In this document: in pieces, positions 41,493 through 52,997 of the stretch
How the letters are laid out: every line of letters begins with the position of its first letter
Numbering within the stretch: position 1 is the stretch's first letter
Source of the DNA: a virus
Direction: 5' to 3' (one strand)
DNA length: 64,000 bases
Virus record (IMG/VR): IMGVR_UViG_3300030107_002502
Span: 2,817-66,816 of that record
The notes under the pieces: generated by a model
The model's input: the letters and a program-made list of their open reading frames with translations, nothing else
Database searches by the model: none
Told to the model about the DNA's origin: nothing
Program-made: the position numbers and the translations under genes

Positions 41493-41915
41493 ACATAATA
41501 TATCGCAGGTTTAATTACCGTTAACTACTATATATACAAAAAAAATTTTTTTACAAGCGGTTTTTGGGTCCCATATAGGGGGCCTTCCTATATTTCAAAA
41601 TTTTACAGATTATTCGTGTAAAATGATATTCTTAAGAAGAAGATGGTACCAATTCAAAATTCGGGGTGCATGGGGGGGCGTATGCTTTCCCATAGCAAAA
41701 AATGGCCTTTTGAAACCAGTTTTTAAGTATTTAAACTTATTATATAGTGTTGTTTTGTGTTTATCTATTGTAATTCATATCATTTTATGCTTATATATAA
41801 TCATCAAGCAGGCAAATGCTTGGCGACTAGCCAAGTTTAAAGTATTGCCACGTTGTGGCATTAATCAGATACAATGTCTGAGCGGCTTGGTTAGTGGATG
41901 TCATAGGAGTAACTC

Positions 41916-42692
41916 ATGACAAAAACTAAAGAAGTTGTGGCGGCAACTGAAAACGCACCTATCGTTGAAATCTCAAAGGCAGTGAGGGAGCTAAAAGCTC
42001 TTCCTGATTTTGGTAGTGATCTTATTGTTAGATCATTGCAAAAACAAACAGAGGGAGCCAAGCTTGAAGGTGATTTTGTAGAGTGGTGTTTTAAGGAAGA
42101 CATTCCTAGCACTCATTTTATTTCACCTAATGAAGTCAATTCAAATAAGGCCAAGAAAACTTATTTGAAAAGCACTGCCTCTGCTGAGTTTTATGCTGAT
42201 TGCATAAACAAGGCTAGGCTTGGTAAATTCGGTGAGCTAGGAGCTAAGGCTCTTGGCTTAGCGAGTGCAGAGCAAGTTAGGTACCATCCTGACTTTGTAG
42301 ATACTAAGCTAGGCGGAGATAACTGGGCTAGATGGTACACTGCAAATAACAGTGTGGCTTCTGGTATAGTTTCCGATTGGAAAGCTAAGCTTGAACGTTT
42401 CGAGAAAGCTGAGGCCAAGAAGAAAGCCTATAAGGCTGAGATTGAACTGGCTGAGAAAGAGGGCCGTAAGCCTAACCTTGCTCAGTTCAATGACGAGAAA
42501 GGTGCGAATCAGAAACGAAAGACCATTGGTCAAAAGTTTCAAGCCCATCTTGACAATGCTCTGAAGAGTCTAACGACTTGGAAGAATATGGATAATGTTC
42601 CAGATACAATCCTGGTTGTGGCTGAACAGTATGCTAAGGACATCAAAGCAATGATGGCCGAGGCCAAGAAGGCTGAGAAGATTCGCCAATAA
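41916..42692 (+). CDS. Hypothetical protein, first gene of the rightward arm
   Basis: 258 aa, AGGAG RBS, K/A/E-rich. Confidence 0.75.
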   Translation: MTKTKEVVAATENAPIVEISKAVRELKALPDFGSDLIVRSLQKQTEGAKLEGDFVEWCFKEDIPSTHFISPNEVNSNKAKKTYLKSTASAEFYADCINKARLGKFGELGAKALGLASAEQVRYHPDFVDTKLGGDNWARWYTANNSVASGIVSDWKAKLERFEKAEAKKKAYKAEIELAEKEGRKPNLAQFNDEKGANQKRKTIGQKFQAHLDNALKSLTTWKNMDNVPDTILVVAEQYAKDIKAMMAEAKKAEKIRQ

Positions 42693-42996: not shown

Positions 42997-43193
42997 GGGC
43001 CCGTGCAATACATAGGGAGGAGCCGACTATGGCTCCTCTTCAGAGAGTAACCATATATCTAACTCATAAAGAAATGGATATGATGGAGAATAAATGTAGA
43101 GAATGTGAAGAAGCATTTGGCTTCCGTCCTACAACAAAACAGCAAGGTGATATGTATAAGCATGCATACTTTGCACATAGGAGTAACAAATGA
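42993..43193 (+). CDS. Hypothetical protein
   Basis: 66 aa; alternative start at MAPLQ behind GGGAGG. Confidence 0.55.
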   Translation: MRARAIHREEPTMAPLQRVTIYLTHKEMDMMENKCRECEEAFGFRPTTKQQGDMYKHAYFAHRSNK

Positions 43194-43375
43194 GTGAATA
43201 CTTTATTAACTTTGTTAAGCTTATATTATTCATAGCTTCCGTTTGCCTGTTATGGTTATCAGGCGGGGAAGTACTAAGCGATGCAGGGATAGGAATTACA
43301 GTGATATACACTGTGTCAGCTATTGCCTGCTTACTACTAGGCATGTCCATTTGGATAGATATGAACGGTAGATAA
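43190..43375 (+). CDS. Small two-TM membrane protein
   Basis: 61 aa, two hydrophobic helices, AGGAG RBS. Confidence 0.6.
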   Translation: MSEYFINFVKLILFIASVCLLWLSGGEVLSDAGIGITVIYTVSAIACLLLGMSIWIDMNGR

Positions 43376-43381
43376 TAGATT

Positions 43382-43414
43382 GGGGATACAGAGGTAACAT
43401 TCTGTATCCCCTTT
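43382..43414 (+). terminator. Terminator-like hairpin
   Basis: GGGGATACAGA-GGTAACAT-TCTGTATCCCC-TTT, perfect 11-bp stem. Confidence 0.7.
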
Positions 43415-43572
43415 GATACCAGTGTTAAGGGGAGCGTAGAGCCTCTGACATAAAAAAAGATTGGCTTGAGTCCTCAATCACAGGGTTACTCGTTAGTGAT
43501 TCACTAACGAAATGACACTCGGAGTAGCAACGAGTAGCACTGAAACCAGTGTTTGGTGGAGCGTAGAGCCTC
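43414..43572 (+). repeat. 32-bp imperfect direct repeat x2
   Basis: TGAWACCAGTGTT-N4-GGAGCGTAGAGCCTC at 43414 and 43541. Confidence 0.85.
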
Positions 43573-43617
43573 ATGACTCGTTAGTGAATCACTAATGAAC
43601 TTGTTAGCACGTGTTTG

Positions 43618-43962
43618 TAATGTTCCATAATGTTCCATGAATGTTCCATAATGTTCCATAACTGTGGAACATTATTGTTTTGTTATGTTTTGTTTAGTTC
43701 TATTAGTAGCAATGAGTTTTTGTCCTATCAGAACTTGCAGTTTAGTATAGTTTTATAAATATTTTATAATGTTCCCTTTTAGGAAAATTGGACTCCGTCT
43801 TATTGAGATATATTAGCAAGTTTTCAAATGTTCCTCTGTTCGAGAGACCCTTCTGAGCGTAGTCCAATTTCCGTTTTCACGGCAACATTGGAACATTCTA
43901 ATTAAATCAATGACTTACACAGTAGCACTGTGGAACATTACAGTACATTACAGTACATTACA
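43618..43962. repeat. Iteron-like AATGTTCC / GGAACATT cluster (candidate origin or terminus)
   Basis: AATGTTCC at 43619, 43629, 43640, 43650, 43768, 43827; inverted TGGAACATT at 43665, 43889, 43931; then CAGTACATTA x2. Confidence 0.85.
43905..43917 (+). promoter_or_regulatory. IHF-consensus site
   Basis: AATCAATGACTTA matches WATCAANNNNTTR exactly. Confidence 0.5.
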
Positions 43963-44026
43963 TAAAAACACACAATATAACATACTTTGACACGTACACC
44001 TAAGCAAATTAATTATTAGTTACCTA

Positions 44027-44055
44027 TTGACATTCCTCGATAGATGTGTTATAAT
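44027..44055 (+). promoter_or_regulatory. Consensus sigma70 early promoter
   Basis: TTGACA (44027-44032), 17 bp, TATAAT (44050-44055), with extended -10 TG and AT-rich upstream sequence. Confidence 0.88.
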
Positions 44056-44084
44056 AATAGTATAATAAAGAAAGGATAAAAATT

Positions 44085-44273
44085 ATGAGTAAGAAAAAAT
44101 CTGTTAGTGAAACACTAACGAAGAATATTAAAAAAGCAAGAGAGCAATTACAAAAAGAAGTTCAAGAGTTCATTAGGTTCAACAATAGAAAAATGAATCC
44201 TATTGAAGCACACGAGTATTTGCATAAGGTAGTTGCTCGCAATTTTAACCAACCAAAGAAGGAGGACATATAA
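44085..44273 (+). CDS. Small basic early protein
   Basis: 62 aa, first ORF after the promoter, AAGGA RBS. Confidence 0.65.
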   Translation: MSKKKSVSETLTKNIKKAREQLQKEVQEFIRFNNRKMNPIEAHEYLHKVVARNFNQPKKEDI

Positions 44274-45184
44274 TGTCTGAACAAAATAAAACTGTTAGTG
44301 ATTCACTAACCGAAACTGTACCATCACTCTCATCAAGTGCAATGCTAGTCGATTTGCAGATATCTCAGTTTACTGGTAGTAAAAAAGATAAGAAGGCATC
44401 AGAACAAGTTACTGCAATCAACAACGCAGACAAGGGTGTCGCCAACGTACACAAGAAACTGCTTGGTAACTGCAAGGAACTTGATGACATCAAAAAGCAC
44501 GTTGGTGAAACTCGTAACCATTACCATTATGCTATGACTATGCCTTGGTCGAATATGGGTTTGCGATTATTGACAACACCTAATTACTTTAACTACCATA
44601 AGGCTATGACCGAACGGCAGGCTACTTTCGCATCACTTGTTGACACGTTTCTACAGAGTTATGAATGGAAGGTGTCGCAGGTAAATGCTAATCTTGGTAA
44701 CTTGTTCAATCGTTCTGATTACCCAACACTTAGTGAGATGAAACGCAAGTTTGCTTTTAATCTTGATTACCCACCATTACCCGATGCAGGCGATTTTCGT
44801 ATTGACATTGGTAATGAAGGTAACAAGGCTTTGAAGGAAAAGTACGAAGGTTACTATGCCAAACAACTGGAGAACGCAATGGGTGACGTGTGGACACGTT
44901 TACACGAGAGCCTATCAAATATGTCCGAACGTCTTGACTATCAAGGCAAAGGAGATAAGAAGACCTTTCGAGATACTCTCGTATCGAATGTTGAACATAT
45001 GATGGGTCTTCTTAAAACATGCAACGTAACGAATGACCCTAAGATGGAGCAGGCACGTATCGAACTTGATGATGTCTTGCGTGGTGTCACACCCGATGCT
45101 TTGCGTGAAGACGATTACCTACGTTCGCAGACTAAACAGTCTGTTGATGAGGTCATCAAATCATTACCATCAATTAACTTTTAA
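44273..45184 (+). CDS. DUF3150-like early protein
   Basis: 303 aa; SAMLVDLQIS...KKD...MPWSNMGLRLL...DYP pattern; precedes the AAA/VWA pair. Confidence 0.55.
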   Translation: MSEQNKTVSDSLTETVPSLSSSAMLVDLQISQFTGSKKDKKASEQVTAINNADKGVANVHKKLLGNCKELDDIKKHVGETRNHYHYAMTMPWSNMGLRLLTTPNYFNYHKAMTERQATFASLVDTFLQSYEWKVSQVNANLGNLFNRSDYPTLSEMKRKFAFNLDYPPLPDAGDFRIDIGNEGNKALKEKYEGYYAKQLENAMGDVWTRLHESLSNMSERLDYQGKGDKKTFRDTLVSNVEHMMGLLKTCNVTNDPKMEQARIELDDVLRGVTPDALREDDYLRSQTKQSVDEVIKSLPSINF

Positions 45185-45227
45185 TCCGTTAGTGAATCAC
45201 TAACACAATCTCTAAAGGAGAAACAAA

Positions 45228-46319
45228 ATGAGTATACAAGCAACTAGAGCATACGCTCAAAACCACGATGAAGTATGTAACACAATCATGTCCATGCCTT
45301 GGAACACAACATTAGTCCAAGGTCATATGGGTATTGGTAAATCAACATTACTTGAGATGTTGAAGAAAATAACTGGACACCTTGCATTCTATGTGGACTG
45401 TACCACGTTGGATATTGGTGACATAATGATACCCAAGATTAACCATCTTGAAGGTGTGGACTTTGTATCGTATGCAATCAATGAAGCCTTTGGACTTCAT
45501 AAAAACGAGCCCGTCATCATCATGCTTGACGAGATTGGTAAAGCCAATCCATCAGTAAAGAAAGGTCTTACACGTTTCATGTTGGAGCGACAGATTGGTA
45601 ACTACAAGCTACACCCTAAGTCGTTATTGTTTGCGACAACTAACTTATCTGCTGAGGGTGTCGGTGATATGTTTGAAGCACACCAATGTGATAGGCTCAA
45701 CATGATTGAGATGCGTAAGCCTACATCAGAGGAATGGCTTTCCTATGCCGTCAATGAGGATGCTGATTTTAATATACTTGGCTTTGCCAAAGAGTTTCCT
45801 CAAATCTTTGATGACTTCCGTGATGTAAAAAATCCCGATGACAACCCATACATCTATCACCCACAAGCCGTTGGTCGTGAGAAGTTTGTTACACCTCGTG
45901 GCTTAATGAAAGCAAGCCACCTGTTGAAGGCTCGTGATAAGATGACAGATAACTCGTTAATGAGTAATCTTATCGGTACTCTTGGTCAACGGGCATCTAT
46001 GGACTTGATGTCTTTCGTTAAGTTGGCTGATCAAATGCCAAAGCGAGAGGATATCATCAAAGACCCAAGCACGGCTAAAGTTCCCGACAGTGCGAGTGCT
46101 ATTTGCATGGTCGTATTTAGTGCGTTGGCATCAATGGACAAGGACTTTATAAATCCTTGGATGACTTATCTTGATAGGCTTGATAAAGAGGCTCAAGGTA
46201 TGTTTGCCAATGGTGTGCGTGATGGCAAGTATGGCAAGCAGTCACTTGTTATGACAAATGCGAAGTTCACAGAGTGGGCTAGAAAAAATAACTATATGTT
46301 CGCATCGGACAAAAAATAG
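45228..46319 (+). CDS. MoxR-like AAA+ ATPase
   Basis: Walker A GHMGIGKST, Walker B IIMLDE, sensor ATTN, TPRG. Confidence 0.85.
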   Translation: MSIQATRAYAQNHDEVCNTIMSMPWNTTLVQGHMGIGKSTLLEMLKKITGHLAFYVDCTTLDIGDIMIPKINHLEGVDFVSYAINEAFGLHKNEPVIIMLDEIGKANPSVKKGLTRFMLERQIGNYKLHPKSLLFATTNLSAEGVGDMFEAHQCDRLNMIEMRKPTSEEWLSYAVNEDADFNILGFAKEFPQIFDDFRDVKNPDDNPYIYHPQAVGREKFVTPRGLMKASHLLKARDKMTDNSLMSNLIGTLGQRASMDLMSFVKLADQMPKREDIIKDPSTAKVPDSASAICMVVFSALASMDKDFINPWMTYLDRLDKEAQGMFANGVRDGKYGKQSLVMTNAKFTEWARKNNYMFASDKK

Positions 46320-46350
46320 TTAGTGAATCACTAACGGAAAGGAGAGACTA

Positions 46351-47556
46351 ATGTTAACCATAGGTAAAACATTAAGTGTAGAGCAACGATTGCAAAAGGC
46401 AGTCGTTGACATCATGGCTAATCCAAAGTACATCGCACTTGCAGGTGTACTGATGATTGGTGAACGTGCAGTAACAGATGACCCTGCGATAGGTACGGCT
46501 TGTACTGACGGCAAGAATGAGATTTATAATCGTGAGTTCTGTGAGAAACTCAATGACGCAGAGTTACGATTTCTTATCTTGCATGAGAACTACCATAAGT
46601 TGTATCGGCATATGATAACGTGGCAACATCTGTCCAAGGAAGACCCTCTACGAACTAACATGGCAATGGACTTTGTTATCAATATCAAATTGGTAGATGA
46701 TAACAAGGATAACTTTGCCACGATGACGGGTATACTTGAGAAAGGTTGTCTCAACGAGAAGTATCGTGGTTGGGATACGGCACGGGTCTTCAAAGACTTA
46801 CCCGAAAGTGACGATGAATGTGGTGGAGGTCAAGGCAATGGTCAAGGTGAACCATTCGATATTCACGATTGGGACGGAGCTGAGGGTCTTAGTACCGAAG
46901 AGAAGAACAAGTTATCACGTGATATTGATGAAGCCATACGCCAGGGAGCGATGATAGCAGGCAAGGTCGGCAATGGTGCTGACCGAGAACTGACCGAGTT
47001 GCTCAAGCCACAGATTGATTGGCGACAAGTATTGCGTGAGTTCGTCAAGGACACGTGTGCAGGCAAGGACTTCTCGACTTGGCAAAGACCGAACAGACGT
47101 TTCATTGGGTCGGGTATTTATATGCCAAGTAGTTTCACCGAGAGGGTCGAGGGTATTGCCGTTGGTGGTGATATGTCGGGTTCGATTGGCGAACGTGAGC
47201 AGGCAGTTATACTTACCGAGGTTTCAAGTATGGCTGAGATTGTCAAGCCATCGTGGTTGCGTATGCTCTATTGGGATACCGAAGTTGTTGGTGACGAGAA
47301 GTATGAGATGCACGAACTGGATAACTTTGTCAAGTCTACCAAGCCAGTAGGTGGTGGTGGAACTGACCCTAGTTGTGTGCCTCTGTACTTGCAGACCCAC
47401 AAGATAACACCTCAATGTGCAATTATGATTACTGACGGATATGTCGGTTCTTGGGGTAAGTGGAGTTGTCCAGTGCTTTGGGTCATCATTGACAACGATA
47501 GTGCTACGCCTAGTGTTGGCAAGTATGTTCACGTCAAGTCACACGAAATCTGTTAG
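46351..47556 (+). CDS. Metallopeptidase-like plus VWA domain protein (DUF2201 type)
   Basis: TACTDG, HENYH (HExxH), MIDAS DMSGS, GGGGT and ITDG. Confidence 0.85.
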   Translation: MLTIGKTLSVEQRLQKAVVDIMANPKYIALAGVLMIGERAVTDDPAIGTACTDGKNEIYNREFCEKLNDAELRFLILHENYHKLYRHMITWQHLSKEDPLRTNMAMDFVINIKLVDDNKDNFATMTGILEKGCLNEKYRGWDTARVFKDLPESDDECGGGQGNGQGEPFDIHDWDGAEGLSTEEKNKLSRDIDEAIRQGAMIAGKVGNGADRELTELLKPQIDWRQVLREFVKDTCAGKDFSTWQRPNRRFIGSGIYMPSSFTERVEGIAVGGDMSGSIGEREQAVILTEVSSMAEIVKPSWLRMLYWDTEVVGDEKYEMHELDNFVKSTKPVGGGGTDPSCVPLYLQTHKITPQCAIMITDGYVGSWGKWSCPVLWVIIDNDSATPSVGKYVHVKSHEIC

Positions 47557-47638
47557 TGAATCACTAACGAGTTACCACGGCAGTTGTAAAATGCAGCGGC
47601 AGCTGCAAGCCAGTTAACTTATCGCAGGAGAACTTGTT

Positions 47639-47755
47639 ATGAGAGGAAGAAACCAAAAAAGTAAGTTTGCCTATCGTAGAATTAAAAAAATACAAAGGGC
47701 ACGAAAAGATAAATTTAAACCCACAACCAATAGGAGGACAAAATGGGTAAAATAA
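47639..47755 (+). CDS. Possible small basic protein (38 aa)
   Basis: AGGAG RBS at 47626; MRGRNQKSKFAYRRIKK. Confidence 0.4.
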   Translation: MRGRNQKSKFAYRRIKKIQRARKDKFKPTTNRRTKWVK

Positions 47756-47922
47756 AACAAGTAATAATTGAAGCAGAGGAAATGCTCGTGGAGTTGTTGA
47801 ACGACATGGGCATGACTAACGACCAAGCCTTGCGAACTATCGAGAATAAACTCGGTAGTTTAGGTAGGGAACACGCTGAAGGTCTATTAAAAATGTGGAA
47901 GGAGGAAGACAATGGGATATAG
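47743..47922 (+). CDS. Hypothetical protein (59 aa, not in ORF track)
   Basis: AGGAGG RBS; MGKIKQVIIEAEEMLVELLND. Confidence 0.65.
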   Translation: MGKIKQVIIEAEEMLVELLNDMGMTNDQALRTIENKLGSLGREHAEGLLKMWKEEDNGI

Positions 47923-48448
47923 AAGTCAAGTCCATTTGTTGTTTGGCATGAGCAGTAAATCTCATCTGCAACAACTGGTATCTGTGTATCGGATGTTGCC
48001 TGCCGTTCAAAAGCATAACCTAATGGAGCAGTGGGATTATCATGTTGAAGAAAAGTGTGGGGATATGTCACGTAACTTTGACATAAACTATTTGCATTTT
48101 TACGGAAACGATTGGAAATGGTACGATGAGTATGATGAAGTGCAAGCCTTACAAGCCATTTTAGACCTAGGCAAAAAGTTTTGGTCTGAAAGAAAGTTTC
48201 CCTTTGCGTATCGGTTGGTACGCACGGGGGAAGATAGTGGTGATGTCGAAGAATATAACGACACTACTGTAACAGATGAGGATACAGATACGAAAGGAGC
48301 AGAGGACGCAGAAACTATGTCTGAGTTCTTTCAAGAACTTATCTATCCTTATAACAATATAGAAGTCAATATTAAGCAATATGTTAGTGAATATGAAGCT
48401 GAGACTGATGAACTAATAACAAAACTAGAAGAAGGAGAAACTAAATGA
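47912..48448 (+). CDS. Hypothetical acidic protein
   Basis: 178 aa; MGYRSQV...WKWY...RTGED pattern. Confidence 0.7.
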   Translation: MGYRSQVHLLFGMSSKSHLQQLVSVYRMLPAVQKHNLMEQWDYHVEEKCGDMSRNFDINYLHFYGNDWKWYDEYDEVQALQAILDLGKKFWSERKFPFAYRLVRTGEDSGDVEEYNDTTVTDEDTDTKGAEDAETMSEFFQELIYPYNNIEVNIKQYVSEYEAETDELITKLEEGETK

Positions 48449-49590
48449 GTATGTATAATACGTATGGAAGAATGTTCCATTTTAATAACTTTGAGCAAGT
48501 AGCACAACACTACAGAGAAACCAAGCCAATCGCAGGGAAGTTCAAACATTTGAACATCATACCCGTTGGCGATAGGAAACGTAAATGGGAACGTATTGAG
48601 AAGATATCGGATGATTGCTACGCACTCTATAATGCTGAATTAGGTGACCCCATATGCCATAACGAGGCTTGGAAACCAACGTACTTCAAGGGTTTAACCC
48701 CCGAGATATCGTTGGCACTTGCACCGATTGTGTGGACACGTGTTAAAGGTGGCTACACGATACGTATACGTAACGGGTCGGGTGATCATGCTCATGTTAG
48801 CAGATATTCATTCCTCAATCGTGCTATGCCGAGCAGTTTGGGGTTTGTGCAGACTGGTAACGGCAGGCAGTATATAAAATGTGGTGGTGTTGACTACTAT
48901 TTACCTAAGAGTAAATACGAGTGTGATTATAAGGTTGCTAGAAGTGGTGACGAGTACAAGCAATGGGAAGGAGTGAAAGACGACCATCATTATCTGACGT
49001 TCTACCACGATGATTTGGGAGACTCAGCATCTCATAGTACTGGTTGGAAACCATACACTAACACGTTTACGTTTCAGTATCCCAAGTCACGTATCGACAA
49101 GGAGGAGAAAGCCAAACACAAAGAGAATACCGATAAGTTTTGGGATTGGATTTGTGCAGTAGCACCTCTCATGCCCACGAATGGTGGTTGGGATACACCC
49201 GAACGTAAGAATTATGAGGGGTACAACAGTCGAATGGCAGATGAAGCCAATGACTATCTAAACGATGTGGCTGTTAATTATTATAGTCGTAGTAGCACTA
49301 GTCCTTTGGGTGGTAAAAATGAGACATGTGCCAAAATTGTCAAGGAAATGATGGCTGATGAAGAACATCCGTTGCGTTTGCCAATGGCTTGGGCATTTGT
49401 CAATACTGTAAATGGTGGTGGTTATTATAACAACGAGGTTAACGAGTTTGCAAGCGTTACAAATCAAGAGAAGGCAAGTAAGATACGTGCTAAATATAAT
49501 CGTTGGATTAATACCCAACTTAACCTAGTGAAAAACCACGAGTCGGGCAAGGTGCTCGTTAGTGAATCACTAACAAAAAAGGAGAAGTAA
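48445..49590 (+). CDS. Hypothetical protein
   Basis: 381 aa, AAGGAG RBS. Confidence 0.75.
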   Translation: MSMYNTYGRMFHFNNFEQVAQHYRETKPIAGKFKHLNIIPVGDRKRKWERIEKISDDCYALYNAELGDPICHNEAWKPTYFKGLTPEISLALAPIVWTRVKGGYTIRIRNGSGDHAHVSRYSFLNRAMPSSLGFVQTGNGRQYIKCGGVDYYLPKSKYECDYKVARSGDEYKQWEGVKDDHHYLTFYHDDLGDSASHSTGWKPYTNTFTFQYPKSRIDKEEKAKHKENTDKFWDWICAVAPLMPTNGGWDTPERKNYEGYNSRMADEANDYLNDVAVNYYSRSSTSPLGGKNETCAKIVKEMMADEEHPLRLPMAWAFVNTVNGGGYYNNEVNEFASVTNQEKASKIRAKYNRWINTQLNLVKNHESGKVLVSESLTKKEK

Positions 49591-49767
49591 ATGAGTAATC
49601 AAATAATTGATAAAGTTAAAGAGCATTGTAAAGACGAAATAGCAATCAATGAGGAACACCCTTGGGAAACAATATCAGATGGCACTGGAGATATATGCCG
49701 TGGTCGTTTGGAGTTTGCCGAAGGTTTACTTGAACGAATTAACATATGGGAGAAAAAAAATGGGTAA
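49591..49767 (+). CDS. Hypothetical protein (58 aa, not in ORF track)
   Basis: AAGGAG RBS; MSNQIIDKVKEHCKDE. Confidence 0.6.
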   Translation: MSNQIIDKVKEHCKDEIAINEEHPWETISDGTGDICRGRLEFAEGLLERINIWEKKNG

Positions 49768-49951
49768 GAAGTTAACCCTTAAAGAAATTCAAAGTCGAAT
49801 AGATGACCTTGAAGGGAAGTACTATAAAGGTTGGAGCAATTCTGAGGAATGGTGGAGGGTTACTGGAGATGTCAACCCGACAGACCGAAGGCTTTGGACT
49901 TTATATCACGGACTAAAAAACCAAAGAAAAAAGGAGGAAGTAAATGAGTAG
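49760..49951 (+). CDS. Hypothetical protein
   Basis: Start moved to ATG 49760 (MGKKLTLKEIQ) behind GGGAG. Confidence 0.6.
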   Translation: MGKKLTLKEIQSRIDDLEGKYYKGWSNSEEWWRVTGDVNPTDRRLWTLYHGLKNQRKKEEVNE

Positions 49952-50444
49952 TCTATTACTTAGTTATCCAGTCATAGATAAAATCATAAAAGTTGCACCT
50001 TGGGGAGCAGAGATTAGCGAATTTGGAGAATTCCCTAGTGGTGCTATTGATGATGGAAAGTCGTGTTCTGAAAAATGTATTAGAAGAAATCTACTATACC
50101 AAATGAAAGAAATAGACATGGAAGCAACTCGTGAATACCATAAAAAGTATCCACCAAAAGTTGGTAATGAAGTTGTGGTATTTAATACATCTGGTGGTTT
50201 ACATCATAAACAACACAAAAGAATTTCTACAATAACAGATAGAGGTCGGTTAATTGTAGAGCATGGAATGGCGTATGCAGGTGTTTCTTTTTGGAAATCG
50301 GGGCAAAACTGTAAAGCACCAACTGGTCAAACTTGGCTTGTGCCTATTGAACTTTATGAAATAAAAATACTTAATCATGAATTTGGTTGTAAAAATTTCA
50401 AAATATATTTTCCCGAAACCTTAAAGGAGGAAGTAAATGAGTAA
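49944..50444 (+). CDS. Hypothetical protein
   Basis: 166 aa, flanked by identical 21-bp RBS/start repeats. Confidence 0.7.
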   Translation: MSSLLLSYPVIDKIIKVAPWGAEISEFGEFPSGAIDDGKSCSEKCIRRNLLYQMKEIDMEATREYHKKYPPKVGNEVVVFNTSGGLHHKQHKRISTITDRGRLIVEHGMAYAGVSFWKSGQNCKAPTGQTWLVPIELYEIKILNHEFGCKNFKIYFPETLKEEVNE

Positions 50445-50682
50445 CATTCGTTACCCAAAAGAATGGTGGGATTTCAAGGGGGTAACACCCCCACCCACCG
50501 AAGACACGTATGTGGACCCATCCGAAGAAGAAGTGGTTCGCATAATAACACGTTTAATTTCAACTTACATGCCAGTAGAACAAAAGAACTACGAAGAGCA
50601 TGGTAAACCCGAAGGTCATATGTATCTTGACCTTTTAGTACTAAAGAAAGGATTGGATAATCATGAGCGTACTAAAACATAA
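50437..50682 (+). CDS. Hypothetical protein
   Basis: 81 aa, AGGAGG RBS. Confidence 0.65.
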   Translation: MSNIRYPKEWWDFKGVTPPPTEDTYVDPSEEEVVRIITRLISTYMPVEQKNYEEHGKPEGHMYLDLLVLKKGLDNHERTKT

Positions 50683-51622
50683 AATGGTGGCTTTCACCAA
50701 AGAAGAACTCGACTATAAAAAGGTTCACTTTGACGAAGGTACGAACGAAGAATATATTAGACAATGCAAAGCAAAGAGAAAACGCTTACTTGAATATGCT
50801 GAAGCACTAAGTAGTGAAATACGTGGTACCACGTTTGCAAATAAAGATGACAAGTCTTTGTATGTGTTCATGGAAGGCGAATACATGTGTATGGGTTGGA
50901 TCGGATACGGAGATTTTTTAGCTACTGTAAACGCTGAAGAAAATTCATTCGTTGTGTACTCACGTCATATCCAAAATATGAAGTATTCTGATTATAATAG
51001 TGAACAGCATTACATGGTGCAAAGTGTAAATATGGGCACTGCCATAAAGAACTGTAAGAAGTACTTACGTAACTACAGTACAGTAGAAATGGCTGACATC
51101 CAGTTGAGTGACGTAAAACACCATGCCACCAACAGAGTTGGAGAAATGGATAGGGATGCTAGAAATCAAATCTCTAGTGTTTTGGAGACAAGTACCTATA
51201 AACCCGAAACATCGGGGGTGTTCAACACTTTACGTCATGTACTCAAAAGTGGGCTTGAGTTTCCCGACAAGGAGTTCAAAGATAAACTTGTTCAGATGTA
51301 TAACAAATATGACGAGTATCTGAGAAACAAAAGTGCTCCCGTTAACATGTTATACGTCAAGGTCTATGAACGTCTGGGGAAACGAACCTTTGATGTGGTT
51401 GATATAGGCAGGGTTGCTACTGGCAAGGAACAAGATGCGTCTTTGCATTACCGAACTTTGCGAGAAAAACCTCTTCAAAAATATGATGACGATACTTTGC
51501 CCGAATACCTTATTGGCAAGATATCGGTATTATCTATGGTCGAACCCAATACTTATGTTGACGATGTTGGTTTTCGTAGTAAGATAGAAAACACCTTTTA
51601 TGTAGTGCGTGATGACAAGTAA
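50663..51622 (+). CDS. Hypothetical protein
   Basis: 319 aa; C-terminal LPEYLIGKISVLSMV...VDDVGFR resembles that of the next gene. Confidence 0.75.
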   Translation: MSVLKHKMVAFTKEELDYKKVHFDEGTNEEYIRQCKAKRKRLLEYAEALSSEIRGTTFANKDDKSLYVFMEGEYMCMGWIGYGDFLATVNAEENSFVVYSRHIQNMKYSDYNSEQHYMVQSVNMGTAIKNCKKYLRNYSTVEMADIQLSDVKHHATNRVGEMDRDARNQISSVLETSTYKPETSGVFNTLRHVLKSGLEFPDKEFKDKLVQMYNKYDEYLRNKSAPVNMLYVKVYERLGKRTFDVVDIGRVATGKEQDASLHYRTLREKPLQKYDDDTLPEYLIGKISVLSMVEPNTYVDDVGFRSKIENTFYVVRDDK

Positions 51623-51911
51623 CCACGTAATGGTAAGTGACGACAAGATACTTCGTGTCTGCGTACATAAAGATAGGAATATCATCAGTATAATAAATTT
51701 AGATACTAATGCTCTTGACACGACAGATGAGGGTATCTATATTAATATAGAAGATGTACCCGATTGGATACAGAGGAGGTTAGCCGTTCTTATGATGGTG
51801 AACACTCACGGAGCCGATATAACCACCCCCGAGATTGAGGGGGTGGGAAGGCGAATATCAAACGGAGGTGCTGAAGCTGATTGCTTTTGGGTATACAAAG
51901 ATAATCGTTAG
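51612..51911 (+). CDS. Hypothetical protein
   Basis: VPDWIQRRLAVLMM...EGVGRRIS; its stop lies inside a palindrome copy. Confidence 0.7.
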   Translation: MTSNHVMVSDDKILRVCVHKDRNIISIINLDTNALDTTDEGIYINIEDVPDWIQRRLAVLMMVNTHGADITTPEIEGVGRRISNGGAEADCFWVYKDNR

Positions 51912-51939
51912 TGATTCACTAACGGATTAATAAAAAGGG

Positions 51940-51965
51940 GGGAAGGTGCTAGTCATCTTCCCTTT
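51940..51965 (+). terminator. Terminator-like hairpin between two palindrome copies
   Basis: GGGAAGGTG-CTAGT-CATCTTCCC-TTT. Confidence 0.6.
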
Positions 51966-52013
51966 GATGCCAGTGTTTTGTTAGTGAATCACTAACGGAT
52001 TGAGGAGGTAAAA

Positions 52014-52238
52014 ATGAGTGAAGGTAAGAATAAAGTATTTTATAGATATGCTTTTAAAGACTTAGTTTTAGAAAATCCAATGTACGGAGCTGGATTAGAG
52101 TATGTCAAAGTAATTTGTACGGACGAGGGCGAAGAATTTAAAACAAAGGTGAGGTTTATCGGTTTCGAGGATGAGGATGGTAAAGCGTTAGACGTAGATG
52201 ATATTATGGTGGTTGCCAAAAGTGGACAAAGAAAATGA
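52014..52238 (+). CDS. Hypothetical protein
   Basis: 74 aa, GAGGAGG RBS. Confidence 0.65.
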   Translation: MSEGKNKVFYRYAFKDLVLENPMYGAGLEYVKVICTDEGEEFKTKVRFIGFEDEDGKALDVDDIMVVAKSGQRK

Positions 52239-52663
52239 TTGAGGCTCTAGTTTGCATGGCTACTGCCATATATTTTGAGGCTCGTGGTGAACCAACTGTT
52301 GGGCAGATAGCCGTAGGACAAGTTATCATGAGTCGTGTAGCTGACCACAGATACCCCGACAGTGTATGCGATGTAGTCAAAGAAGGATATTATTACTCTT
52401 GGAACCCCAGTATACCTATTCCCGATAAATGCCAGTTTTCATTTTGGTGTGACGGCAAACCCGAAGAAGTTACAGATAAAGAAGCTTATGCTTGGGCAGA
52501 AGAAATTTCTTGGGGGTTGCTTGAGGGAGATTTAAACATGATTGATCTAACCGATAGTGCAACGCACTACCATGCGTGGTGGGTTAGACCATCTTGGAGT
52601 AACAGATTTACACGTACTGTTAGGATAGACGAACATATTTTTTACCGTTGGGAGATGGATTAG
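52235..52663 (+). CDS. Cell wall hydrolase, SleB/Hydrolase_2 family
   Basis: AIYFEARGE, CQFSFWCDG, ATHYHA and HIFY motifs. Confidence 0.88.
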   Translation: MIEALVCMATAIYFEARGEPTVGQIAVGQVIMSRVADHRYPDSVCDVVKEGYYYSWNPSIPIPDKCQFSFWCDGKPEEVTDKEAYAWAEEISWGLLEGDLNMIDLTDSATHYHAWWVRPSWSNRFTRTVRIDEHIFYRWEMD

Positions 52664-52664
52664 C

Positions 52665-52997
52665 ATGAATGCAAAACATTATGAATGGAACAACCACGAA
52701 GATACATATGAAGAAGCACTGAGACGTAGACTTATAAGCTTAGAAAAAGAAAACGATATTTTAAGATCAGATTTAAGAGAACTTACAAAAGTATTTTATA
52801 AATTATTGGAGGGTAAAAACGTGACTAAATTTTCAGATGAGTTTGTACAGAAAGTTCAAAACTTTTACAAGGAAGGTAAGAAACAAAAGAAGGCAAGCAA
52901 CGATAAAGTATTTACGATTGAGGATGTAGTTGAGAAGTTCGGTATCTTACCTAATCAAGTAAAAAGAATTTTATATATTAGAAAGAATGGAAAATGA
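52665..52997 (+). CDS. Hypothetical protein (possible internal GTG start at 52821)
   Basis: 110 aa; in-frame GGAGG...GTG suggests two products or a fusion. Confidence 0.55.
   Translation: MNAKHYEWNNHEDTYEEALRRRLISLEKENDILRSDLRELTKVFYKLLEGKNVTKFSDEFVQKVQNFYKEGKKQKKASNDKVFTIEDVVEKFGILPNQVKRILYIRKNGK

What the first reader, a model, noticed from the sequence alone, without database searches (positions are those of the whole stretch)
43492..51996. Ten copies of a 17-bp palindrome punctuate the early operon at gene junctions
Seen: GTTAGTGA(A/T)TCACTAAC at 43492, 43580, 44103, 44294, 45188, 46319, 47552, 49558, 51907 and 51980, and not noticed elsewhere in 64 kb. Copies supply or touch the stop codons of four genes (ending 45184, 46319, 47556, 51911). 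Three lie inside coding termini and all read VS(E/D)(S/T)LT, so the DNA appears to be constrained over the protein. Most lie downstream of the consensus promoter rather than on it, unlike a simple operator. Inference, unresolved: an array of sites for a dimeric protein acting as a transcription roadblock, looping or parS-like loading system; recombination joints for swapping early-gene cassettes; or RNA processing marks. The best candidate here for an undescribed system.
Basis: partly seen in the sequence, partly recalled or inferred. Interest (0 to 1): 0.88.

Follow-up and report, generated by a model that had tools for sequence, protein, structure and literature searches.

The report
Gene-junction palindrome array in a marine phage
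Ten copies of one 17-base palindrome mark the gene boundaries of this marine phage's early operon; related phages carry their own versions at the same boundaries, and one carries self-cutting RNAs there, so the marks probably punctuate the early messenger RNA.

Summary
There are 8 exact and 2 one-mismatch copies, all within 8.5 kb of a 66.8-kb phage genome, against 0 expected by chance.

The array is not private to this phage. Among 81 loci that encode the neighbouring DUF3150 protein, 33 carry an array of 4 or more perfect palindromes, in at least 13 lineage-specific versions. Most of the other loci carry other junction motifs.

A copy lies at the DUF3150 gene start in 44 of 66 loci, against 6.9 expected. 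In one relative, L134, the same junctions hold six type II hammerhead ribozymes. The central base is biased by strand in several versions.

- **Best reading (0.42):** RNA hairpins that punctuate the early polycistronic mRNA, read by a factor not yet identified.
- **Main rival (0.33):** operators for a dimeric DNA-binding protein, as proposed for the 17-bp repeats of Cluster O mycobacteriophages (PMC4351075).
- **Not supported:** a ParB/parS system, a virion RNA polymerase, a host regulon motif.
- **Mixed evidence:** crossover joints for gene exchange.

No reader protein was found and no RNA data exist. This scan has noted similar junction palindromes in other phages (e.g. e1-6103210).

The parts
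43492..43508 (.). Palindrome copy 1 (exact, centre T). It lies in the non-coding spacer between a terminator-like hairpin and the iteron region.
43580..43596 (.). Palindrome copy 2 (one mismatch, last base T, which gives a G-T pair on the + strand). It directly abuts the iteron region.
43600..43965 (.). Iteron-like region, a putative replication origin. It holds AATGTTCCA repeats in direct and inverted order around an AT-rich core. Relatives have their own iterons at the same place.
   Evidence: inference
44027..44055 (+). Consensus sigma-70 promoter of the early operon (TTGACA, 17-base spacer, TATAAT, with TG before the -10 hexamer).
44103..44119 (.). Palindrome copy 3 (centre AAA). It covers codons 7-12 of the 62-aa first gene, roughly 40 bases downstream of the predicted transcription start.
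44294..44310 (.). Palindrome copy 4 (exact). It covers codons 8-13 of the DUF3150 gene (44273-45184). The site is kept at this position in relatives that carry other palindrome versions.
45188..45204 (.). Palindrome copy 5. It starts 3 bases after the DUF3150 stop and ends 23 bases before the ATG of the AAA ATPase gene (45228-46319).
46319..46335 (.). Palindrome copy 6. It shares its first base with the ATPase stop codon and ends 15 bases before the ATG of the DUF2201 VWA/metallopeptidase gene (46351-47556).
47552..47568 (.). Palindrome copy 7. It contains the TAG stop of the VWA gene. Homology to L027, and to one environmental strain, ends at its right edge.
49558..49574 (.). Palindrome copy 8. 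It lies inside the 3' end of the 381-aa gene and ends 16 bases before the next ATG (49591).
51907..51923 (.). Palindrome copy 9 (centre T). It contains the TAG stop of the last early gene (51609-51911) and is followed by a terminator-like hairpin.
51940..51965 (+). Terminator-like hairpin (GGGAAG, 11-base loop, CTTCCC, then TTT) that closes the early operon. It is followed by the box TTTGATGCCAGTGTTTT.
   Evidence: Read by eye from the output. The terminator scan did not list it because the loop exceeds 8 bases.
51980..51996 (.). Palindrome copy 10. It ends 17 bases before the ATG at 52014 and opens the next transcription unit.

Best explanation
The palindromes act on the RNA copy of the early operon. 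Each folds into a short hairpin (7-bp stem, 3-nt loop) at a cistron boundary, usually between the upstream stop codon and the Shine-Dalgarno sequence of the next gene.

A sequence-specific factor reads these hairpins. It may be a phage protein or a host protein; it has not been identified. It binds the hairpins and perhaps cuts there. The result would be that the long early transcript, made by host RNA polymerase from the promoter at 44027, is divided into units. Each unit's stability or translation could then be set separately, or the whole early set could be switched off together.

**Shown:**
- the array itself, and its restriction to the early region;
- lineage-specific versions at homologous junctions;
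- enrichment of sites just upstream of ribosome-binding sites;
- strand bias of the central base in several versions;
- replacement of the palindromes by self-cleaving hammerhead ribozymes in one relative.

**Inferred:** that the palindromes do the same job as those ribozymes; that the reading happens on RNA; and that a dedicated reader exists.
For: 1. **Ribozymes at the same junctions.** In L134 the homologous early operon has no palindrome family (best family count 1). L134 has a divergent terminase, a DUF3150 protein 30% identical and a VWA protein 32% identical. It carries 7 copies of a hammerhead core, and 6 of them pass Rfam's curated score for type II hammerheads at 41.7-51.4 bits. The geometry is stop, 0-4 nt, element, 14-23 nt, ATG. 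One copy ends 23 nt before the DUF3150 ATG and one lies upstream of the VWA gene. Clustered hammerheads that flank single genes in prophages have been shown to cleave, and were proposed to cut long phage transcripts into gene-length mRNAs (PMC3088659, passages read).

2. **Strand bias of the centre.** This is unexpected for a symmetric double-stranded site. On the sense strand, TACTGTC-N-GACAGTA has A 70, T 16, G 5, C 4. TTCCTAC-N-GTAGGAA has C 16, G 0. TTAGTCG-N has C 6, G 1. In L089, 13 of 14 centres start with A without a matching T on the other side. In the window, all 5 copies that sit just upstream of a ribosome-binding site have centre A.

3. **Variable centre length.** It toggles between 3 and 4 nt among close relatives and within single genomes. 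L027 has 11 sites of 18 bp and 1 of 17 bp; L024 has 4 and 1. The same toggle occurs in two other versions, GTTATAC and GTTATCA. A loop tolerates this more easily than a rigid dimer does.

4. **Placement near starts.** Of 246 distinct perfect sites, 99 lie 8-35 nt upstream of a start codon preceded by a ribosome-binding site. Among random positions inside the same arrays the figure is 432 of 4934.

5. **Foldability.** All 10 copies fold as predicted hairpins, at -6.2 to -12.4 kcal/mol with z-scores of -2.3 to -4.4.

6. **Restriction to the early unit.** This holds in the window and in the two relatives read further out, G001 and G002.
Against: - No RNA data exist for this phage (see Tried and rejected).
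- No endoribonuclease or RNA-binding protein was identified.
- Hammerheads were found in only 1 of 35 relative loci scanned, and not in the window. The equivalence therefore rests on one lineage.
- Several copies lie between a terminator-like hairpin and the early promoter, next to the iterons. That DNA may not be transcribed. Examples are window 43492 and 43580, L032 2743, 2961 and 3157, and the sites of L027, L029 and L030.
- Some copies sit inside reading frames: window 44103 and 44294, and L032 4343 in mid-gene. A cut there would destroy the message.
- Arms that never vary within a genome, around a free centre, are the classic signature of a dimeric DNA-binding protein. In the window version the symmetry runs to the centre (8-1-8).
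- Imperfect copies show no excess of G-U-compatible changes on the sense strand: 7 GT or TG against 9 CA or AC, most of them at the outermost position.
- Over all 10 copies the window's own centres are 7 A to 3 T, which is not significant.
Confidence: 0.42

Rival explanations
1. The palindromes are double-stranded DNA operators for a dimeric, lineage-specific phage protein. Bound at about ten places from the origin-proximal spacer through the early operon, the protein represses or blocks host RNA polymerase. That would shut off or time the early genes as a group. Alternatively it couples early transcription to the neighbouring origin. This would work like the stoperators of Cluster A mycobacteriophages or the global repressors of broad-host-range plasmids.
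For: - The site has dyad symmetry, with arms invariant within a genome and a variable centre.
- At least 13 versions exist. Many keep the outer GTTA...TAAC while the inner bases vary, as expected for a diversifying family of DNA readers.
- Copies lie upstream of the early promoter, beside the iterons. A copy lies 40-60 bases downstream of the consensus promoter in three lineages: window, L027 and L032.
- Copies lie inside reading frames. A mid-gene copy has shifted by 9 bases between L032 and L033, so a site is kept near that spot independently of a junction.
- An imperfect 30-bp version (L119) occurs in both orientations relative to transcription.
- The authors of the Cluster O study read their 7-3-7 repeats as sites for dimeric DNA-binding proteins (PMC4351075, passages read).
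- The TACTGTC lineage encodes a small protein with a sigma-70 region 4 helix-turn-helix (E 3.5e-9) inside the array.
Against: - No cognate binder was found.
- The 62-aa first gene is absent from L028, which keeps the sites.
- The 110-aa helix-turn-helix candidate has relatives in 12 loci that lack both the array and the DUF3150 module.
- A presence/absence test found no gene family shared by all 34 array-bearing loci.
- The fold of 'gene A' was too poor to use, at pLDDT 49.5.
- Sites of 17 and 18 bp are mixed within one genome.
- The centre is biased by strand.
- Sites are enriched just upstream of ribosome-binding sites.
- Ribozymes occupy the same junctions in L134.
Confidence: 0.33
2. The palindromes are mainly crossover points. 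They are short conserved linkers at which related phages exchange, gain or lose early-gene cassettes, as PeSL elements do in T4-type phages.
For: - Homology between the window and L027 ends at the right edge of copy 47552-47568 and 2 bases before copy 44103.
- One environmental strain (X3) skips 47568-47620.
- Contigs of X3 and X5 carry about 128 extra bases exactly at copy 46319. One X1 contig diverges inside copy 49558.
- PeSL-mediated shuffling is documented (PMC2839356, abstract read).
- This scan's earlier follow-ups on other phages favoured this reading (e1-6103210; unchecked).
Against: - As many breakpoints lie at junctions without a palindrome: 47828/48431, 47931/48412, 49935/50430 and 49599/50423. 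The last pair falls between two similar ribosome-binding-site and ATG stretches.
- Breakpoint 52010/52232 lies 14 bases past a copy and has a 7-base microhomology.
- All six breakpoints beyond 52.6 kb lie where there are no palindromes.
- Two small genes are swapped in order between L094 and L032 at boundaries without palindromes.
- Gene order around the sites is conserved between lineages that share only 40% protein identity.
- This reading does not explain why every copy in a genome changes version together. It also does not explain the strand bias.
Confidence: 0.08
3. The palindromes are hairpin promoters. Extruded as single-stranded DNA hairpins, they would be recognised by an unrecognised phage RNA polymerase, as in coliphage N4. 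Each early gene would then get its own transcript starting just upstream of its ribosome-binding site.
For:
- The phage shares the N4 gp24-like ATPase (about 26% identity) and a VWA partner with N4-like phages.
- A 2500-aa virion-type 'polyvalent' protein sits where N4 has its virion polymerase.
- A new 5' end just upstream of each ribosome-binding site is also what the L134 hammerheads produce.
Against: - No polymerase signal was found in the 2500-aa protein. PHROGs gave 0 families on a 1674-aa fragment, the PDB sequence search gave 0 hits, and Pfam gave only LPD39. The nearest Atlas clusters carry LPD22, LPD38 and LPD39.
- A perfect consensus host promoter heads the operon.
- Two copies lie downstream of start codons.
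- A perfect palindrome gives no direction.
Confidence: 0.05
4. The palindromes are parS-like loading sites for a ParB or KorB-type clamp. The clamp would condense, segregate or silence the origin-proximal part of the genome.
For: About ten 17-bp palindromes cluster on one side of an iteron-rich putative origin. They are denser near it, with spacing growing from about 0.1-0.5 kb to 2.3 kb.
Against: No ParB_N domain was found in the window's genome, in G001, in G002 or in Pag-Yong1: 0 of 4 at E up to 1. The same search rang in 11 of 14 control genomes.
Confidence: 0.03

Closest known systems
17-bp dyad repeats of Cluster O mycobacteriophages (Corndog and relatives; PMC4351075, passages read)
   Same: The format is identical: 7-bp inverted arms around 3 free bases. 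The arms are invariant within a genome and the centre varies. The motif is absent from host genomes. Many copies are intergenic or in the first codons of genes. The function is unknown.
   Different: Corndog has 34 copies spread over the whole genome, about a third of them inside genes. The authors judged them not closely linked to translation starts. They saw no orientation signal and no link to indels.

Here there are 10 copies, confined to the early operon and enriched upstream of ribosome-binding sites. Many versions occur across relatives, and a ribozyme replaces the palindrome in one lineage. The sequence and the host phylum are unrelated.
Clustered hammerhead ribozymes flanking single genes in prophage operons (PMC3088659, passages read)
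   Same: The elements recur at cistron boundaries of phage operons. In L134 they sit at the very junctions where the window has palindromes.
   Different: The window has no ribozyme core: Rfam gave 0 matches at the gathering score and 0 at E up to 1. A 17-base hairpin cannot cut itself, so a trans-acting reader would be needed.
RNase III processing sites between the early genes of coliphage T7
   Same: A handful of conserved hairpins at the gene junctions of an early operon transcribed by host polymerase. They cut it into single messages.
   Different: As I recall, T7 sites are long irregular hairpins of about two helical turns. They are also sequence-invariant.
Stoperators of Cluster A mycobacteriophages (as described in PMC4351075, and recalled)
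   Same: Many copies of one short site are dispersed through operons, mostly in short intergenic gaps. The site differs between lineages and matches a cognate reader.
   Different: Stoperators are asymmetric, oriented with transcription and bound by the immunity repressor of temperate phages. Here the site is a dyad. No repressor or integrase was seen, and the array covers only the early operon.
PeSL cassettes of T4-type phages (PMC2839356, abstract read)
   Same: A repeated regulatory element stands between small early genes, and gene content varies nearby.
   Different: A PeSL is a strong sigma-70 promoter plus a terminator stem-loop. Here there is one consensus promoter for the whole operon, and the element is a bare 17-mer. 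Only some breakpoints coincide with it.
CRISPR repeats read by Cas6-type endoribonucleases (recalled)
   Same: Identical short palindromic repeats in one transcript. Their sequence is lineage-specific and co-varies with a dedicated hairpin-specific RNA cutter. This is the logic proposed for the novel case.
   Different: The spacing here is irregular (73-2349 bases) and is set by genes. No cas genes were seen in the proteins scanned.

Membership tests
Cluster O-type 17-bp dyad repeats | Two 7-bp inverted arms separated by 3 bp, with invariant arms and a variable centre | tested here: met
   (in L028 the centres are AAT, ATT, ATA, ACA, ACT and GGT); definition from PMC4351075
Cluster O-type 17-bp dyad repeats | More than 30 copies located throughout the genome, not closely linked to translation starts | tested here: not met
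   There are 10 copies within 8.5 kb of 66.8 kb. Of 246 sites in this phage group, 99 lie 8-35 nt upstream of a start preceded by a ribosome-binding site, against 432 of 4934 random positions.
Hammerhead ribozyme (type II) junction array | Conserved catalytic core and three stems, scored by the Rfam model RF02276 | tested here: not met
   The window gave 0 matches at the gathering score and 0 at E up to 1 over 43000-52500. The feature is met only in relative L134, with 6 matches.
ParB/parS or KorB-type system | A protein with a ParB N-terminal domain encoded by the element | tested here: not met
   PF02195 was found in 0 of 4 genomes at E up to 1. The control search rang in 11 of 14 genomes.
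N4-type hairpin promoters | A virion or phage-encoded single-subunit RNA polymerase | tested here: not met
   The 2500-aa protein gave no PHROG match (on a 1674-aa fragment), no PDB sequence match, and only LPD39 in Pfam. Its Atlas neighbours carry LPD22, LPD38 and LPD39. Sequence-based methods can miss a divergent polymerase.
N4-type hairpin promoters | A hairpin with a 5-7 bp stem and a 3-nt loop (definition recalled) | tested here: met
   A 7-bp stem and 3-nt loop are predicted for all 10 copies.
PeSL cassettes | Each element combines a strong sigma-70-like promoter with a terminator stem-loop | tested here: not met
   Only one 12-of-12 promoter lies in 41-56 kb. Promoter-like hits overall numbered 51 against 42.3 expected from shuffles. 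Just 6-16 nt separate a palindrome from the ribosome-binding site.
PeSL cassettes | Insertions, deletions and replacements between relatives end at the elements | tested here: inconclusive
   About 4 breakpoints lie within 5 bases of a copy: 44101, 47568/47570, 46319-46323 and 49564. At least 5 breakpoint pairs inside the array region do not.
Stoperators (Cluster A mycobacteriophages) | An asymmetric site oriented with transcription | tested here: not met
   The window site is a perfect dyad apart from its single central base. The centres are 7 A and 3 T. Other versions do show centre bias.
Host regulon motif (mimicry of a host operator) | The same motif recurs in bacterial genomes | tested here: not met
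   The exact pattern was found in 11 single-copy stretches across unrelated taxa in 185,579 species genomes. No genome held more than one copy.
T7-type RNase III sites | About two helical turns of double-stranded RNA (recalled) | tested here: not met
   The predicted stems are 7-10 bp.

The most novel reading that the evidence does not exclude
A large group of aquatic phages, those with the DUF3150, AAA ATPase and VWA early module, uses a hypervariable 'address' system for its early mRNA. Each lineage has its own short hairpin and a co-evolving, still unknown sequence-specific endoribonuclease or RNA-binding protein. This is the logic of CRISPR repeats and Cas6, applied to cutting or silencing an operon at every cistron boundary. 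The system is functionally interchangeable with self-cleaving hammerhead ribozymes. The same explanation might then reach the unexplained dyad repeats of Cluster O mycobacteriophages and the junction palindromes of other phages.
Probability: 0.2. Interest if true: 0.85.

Novelty: new variant of a known kind. Interest (0 to 1): 0.62.

Why it matters
Arrays of one short palindrome at phage gene junctions have been reported, in Cluster O mycobacteriophages, and repeatedly noted in this scan. No mechanism has been established for them.

This case adds three handles that make the question testable:
- a series of at least 13 palindrome versions at homologous junctions of one conserved early module;
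- a strand bias of the central base;
- a relative in which self-cleaving ribozymes occupy the same junctions.

If the ribozyme equivalence holds, these palindromes are RNA punctuation marks. Finding their reader would uncover a new family of programmable, sequence-specific RNA-processing or RNA-binding proteins.

If it fails, the array is a compact example of a global DNA operator system in a lytic phage. Its natural specificity variants would still be useful for studying the co-evolution of a reader and its site.

Tried and rejected
**Three-frame stop cassette.** The window's palindrome holds TAG, TGA and TAA in two frames. Other versions, such as ATACTGTCAGACAGTAT, have no stop in any frame (read). 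Rejected.

The centres in L028 (ATA, ACA, GGT) and the 18-bp forms in L027 break GANTC. Not the conserved feature.

**Host operator mimicry.** Rejected.

**ParB/parS.** Rejected.

**Virion RNA polymerase.** No sign of one.

**The 62-aa protein as binder.** Its gene is absent from L028.

**The 110-aa coiled-coil plus helix-turn-helix protein (52665-52997) as binder.**
- Its short-type relatives share about 30% identity. They occur with both 17-bp and 18-bp sites.
- They also occur in 12 loci that lack both the array and the DUF3150 module.
- A search for close relatives of the window's own type found none.

**'Gene A' (41916-42692).** It is positionally conserved and fast-evolving. The fold had mean pLDDT 49.5 and was not searched further.

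**The 84-aa HTH_17 protein.** It is 78-86% identical in four loci with the same palindrome. No locus with another version covered that region, apart from one weak match in G001 at E 0.005. No covariation test was possible.

**Gene presence/absence against array status.** Across 34 array-bearing and 39 array-less loci, only lineage-restricted families came up. The test is confounded by relatedness and by fragmentary contigs.

**Profile of the DUF3150 family against PDB sequences.** Nothing below E 0.9.

**Literature on DUF3150.** One unrelated preprint.

**Pag-Yong1.** No paper in the library.

**The HTVC023P-type pelagiphage paper.** It has no mention of palindromes, promoters or hairpins. HTVC027P itself has no array and shares only the terminase.

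**Phage 7-11 paper (PMC4331800).** Not relevant to palindromes.

**RNA evidence.** No RNA holder was listed among 24 public runs. This is no evidence either way.

**Sense-strand G-U test on imperfect copies.** Uninformative: 7 against 9, mostly at the outermost position.

**Megablast of the region against named phages.** No match.

**Supplementary files.** Those of the papers cited were not opened. The figures and alignments of PMC3088659 and PMC4351075 may bear on the gene contexts quoted.

Full report
**1. The observation**

The 17-base pattern occurs exactly 8 times in the window, with none in 100 shuffles. Allowing up to 3 mismatches adds only 43580 and 44103.

The window covers 64 kb of a 66,816-base virus record rated complete. 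That record holds the same ten places and no others at up to 1 mismatch. The copies span 43492-51996.

For 45184 there is a 3-base gap.

The shared reading VS(E/D)(S/T)LT is forced, because the other two frames of the palindrome carry stop codons.

**2. What the DNA is**

The minus strand up to 41.5 kb encodes the terminase, portal, capsid and other virion proteins. It ends in a 2500-aa protein with an LPD39 domain.

The plus strand from 41.6 kb carries these elements in order:
- a separately transcribed 258-aa gene ('gene A');
- a non-coding stretch with AATGTTCCA iterons (43600-43965);
- the only perfect sigma-70 promoter (44027-44055);
- an operon of small genes that includes a conserved triad. 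The triad is DUF3150 (named from the annotation of a homologue, and from Pfam on a relative), an AAA ATPase and a DUF2201 VWA/metallopeptidase;
- replication genes further on.

The ATPase resembles N4 gp24 at about 26% identity. The terminase is closest to those of pelagiphages and a 'Planktothrix' phage. DNA runs that hold the sequence are marine metagenomes.

**3. Anatomy of the array**

- Two copies lie between a terminator-like hairpin and the iterons.
- One lies about 40 bases downstream of the predicted transcription start, inside the first gene.
- One lies in codons 8-13 of the DUF3150 gene.
- Four lie 15-23 bases upstream of an ATG, with the ribosome-binding site in between (45188, 46319, 49558, 51980).
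- One holds the stop of the VWA gene.
- One holds the stop of the last early gene, just before a terminator-like hairpin.

The array therefore begins at the origin-like region and ends where the early operon ends.

**4. Relatives**

The exact pattern is found in 22 IMG/VR stretches. Eleven of them are relatives at 70-90% protein identity. Several have the palindrome upstream of the helicase gene, where the window lacks it.

Loci found through the DUF3150 protein carry arrays at homologous junctions with other sequences:
- GTTAGTGA-NN-TCACTAAC in L027 and L029;
- GTTAGTCC-NN-GGACTAAC in L030;
- ATACTGTC-N-GACAGTAT in L031-L033.

The cultured phage Pag-Yong1 (69% GC) has GGTTCAG-N-CTGAACC at its early junctions. 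The recurring unit there is TGA, tcc, palindrome, about 12 nt, GGAG, about 6 nt, ATG.

A profile search gave 80 loci. I examined 81 (those 80 plus L030) together with the window:
- 33 loci and the window have a family of 4 or more perfect palindromes with 7-base arms, in at least 13 versions. Shuffled controls never exceeded 1.
- Of 16 loci examined for repeated 11-mers (15 without a perfect family, plus L124), 14 had another repeated motif of 4 or more copies. Most were imperfect or longer palindromes.
- In 44 of 66 loci with a repeated 10-mer family, a copy lies within -150 to +80 of the DUF3150 start, against 6.9 expected.

In the two relatives read further out, the sites stop at the end of the early region.

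The DUF3150 N-terminus changes with the palindrome version. Selection therefore acts on the nucleic acid, not on the peptide.

**5. The layout is conserved**

In the window, L027 and L032 the order is the same:
- gene A with its own promoter and terminator;
- a palindrome;
- lineage-specific iterons;
- a consensus promoter;
- a palindrome 40-60 bases downstream;
- the operon, with palindromes at its junctions.

**6. Evidence that bears on mechanism**

*For an RNA reading:*
- The key result is L134. Its early operon is homologous and has no palindrome family. It carries seven copies of a hammerhead core, and six pass the Rfam threshold for type II hammerheads. They have the same stop-element-ribosome-site-ATG geometry, including the junctions upstream of DUF3150 and of the VWA gene.
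- Clustered hammerheads around single prophage genes cleave in vitro. They were proposed to cut long phage transcripts into gene-length messages (PMC3088659).
- The centre of the palindrome is strongly biased by strand in several versions: A 70 to T 16; C 16 to G 0.
- In ten TACTGTC arrays the last site has T where the inner ones have A.
- The centre length toggles between 3 and 4 nt, even within a genome.
- Sites are enriched 4.6-fold just upstream of ribosome-binding sites.
- All ten copies fold as modest hairpins.

*For a DNA reading:*
- The symmetry is perfect, the arms are invariant and the centre is free.
- Many versions keep the outer GTTA...TAAC.
- Copies lie in a spacer that may not be transcribed.
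- Copies lie inside genes.
- One imperfect version occurs in both orientations.
- The published reading of the Cluster O repeats points the same way.

*Limits:* hammerheads were found in 1 of 35 loci scanned and not in the window.

**7.

- The 62-aa gene is dispensable in L028.
- The 110-aa helix-turn-helix protein travels with a cell-wall hydrolase into phages without arrays.
- There is no ParB.
- There is no polymerase signal in the polyvalent protein.
- The gene A fold failed.
- The association test was confounded.

**8. Recombination**

Comparison with L027, and with contigs of three other marine samples, shows some breakpoints at palindrome edges: 44101, 47568-47570, 46319-46323 and 49564.

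At least as many lie at junctions without a palindrome. Several of those fall between similar ribosome-site and ATG stretches.

I read recombination as a side effect at most.

**9. Verdict**

The feature is real, under selection and widespread in one large group of aquatic phages. Its kind is known but unexplained.

I commit to RNA punctuation hairpins read by an unidentified sequence-specific factor, at 0.42. A dimeric DNA-operator array follows at 0.33.

The link to hammerhead ribozymes and the series of palindrome versions are, as far as my searches went, not in print. They make the question testable.

Noticed in passing
L134:6085-11275: Six type II hammerhead ribozymes (Rfam RF02276, 41.7-51.4 bits), plus a seventh copy of the core near 4786, sit at successive gene junctions of a phage early operon on an 88-kb contig. 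Each lies 14-23 nt upstream of the next ATG.
   Followed up: partly
window 43600-43965 (also L027:2600-2960, L032:2770-3130): An iteron-rich, AT-cored non-coding region lies between gene A and the early promoter. Each lineage has its own iteron (AATGTTCCA, TAATGTTCG, TGTTCACT). It is a likely replication origin for the 935-aa primase-helicase.
   Followed up: partly
window 41707-41722, 43411-43450, 43543-43577, 51963-51979: A recurring box of the form TTGA-NN-CCAGT follows terminator-like hairpins. At two places it continues into a conserved GAGCGTAGAGCCTC stretch just upstream of a palindrome. Relatives (L027, L029, L030) have the same box. Its function is unknown.
   Followed up: no
window 47639-47755: A 38-aa, very basic open frame (MRGRNQKSKFAYRRIKK...) follows palindrome 47552. 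A similar frame starts right after the homologous palindrome in L027. It could bind nucleic acid.
   Followed up: no
L028:4743-4801: This relative lacks the body of the 62-aa first gene. Two palindromes are left 42 bases apart, apparently fused in frame to the DUF3150 gene.
   Followed up: partly
L027:1684-1719: A second, different 19-bp perfect palindrome (CAACCAATGTCATTGGTTG) directly abuts the GTTAGTGA palindrome between the promoter and the start of gene A.
   Followed up: no
L032:4649-4927 and L033:1254-1574: The TACTGTC lineage encodes a 92-106-aa protein with a sigma-70 region 4 helix-turn-helix (E 3.5e-9; weak KorA-family match). It lies inside the array, and a palindrome lies in its own 3' end.
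   Followed up: partly
L094, L096, L097, L101, L113, L115, L129, L138, L032, L033 (last site of each array): In ten TACTGTC-type arrays the central base is A at nearly all inner sites but T at the last site. In L094 and L096 the three origin-proximal sites are also T, where the homologous sites of L032 have A.
   Followed up: partly
L119:2640-11980 (also L121, L140): A 30-bp junction element, GGACATTCTTAG-N6-CTAAGTTTGTCC, occurs in both orientations. It always has the same two non-complementary positions in mid-arm (T-T or A-A), which suggests a conserved internal loop in a folded form.
   Followed up: no
OL906435.1, OQ594354.1, PP438419.1: Three phage records attributed to different cyanobacterial hosts have the same length (65,014 bases) and give identical matches. 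The one read here has 69% GC. The true host may be a co-cultured heterotroph.
   Followed up: no
window 52235-52997 and L055-L068: The cell-wall hydrolase gene and the neighbouring small helix-turn-helix gene travel together as a two-gene module into phages that lack the DUF3150 triad.
   Followed up: partly
L094:5194-5610 versus L032:4254-4652: Two adjacent genes of about 200 bases each are in swapped order between two relatives of the same palindrome version. Neither boundary is at a palindrome.
   Followed up: no
L110:16408-16474: A match to the Rfam int-alpA RNA (49.7 bits, gathering score 35.8) in a DUF3150-bearing phage contig.
   Followed up: no
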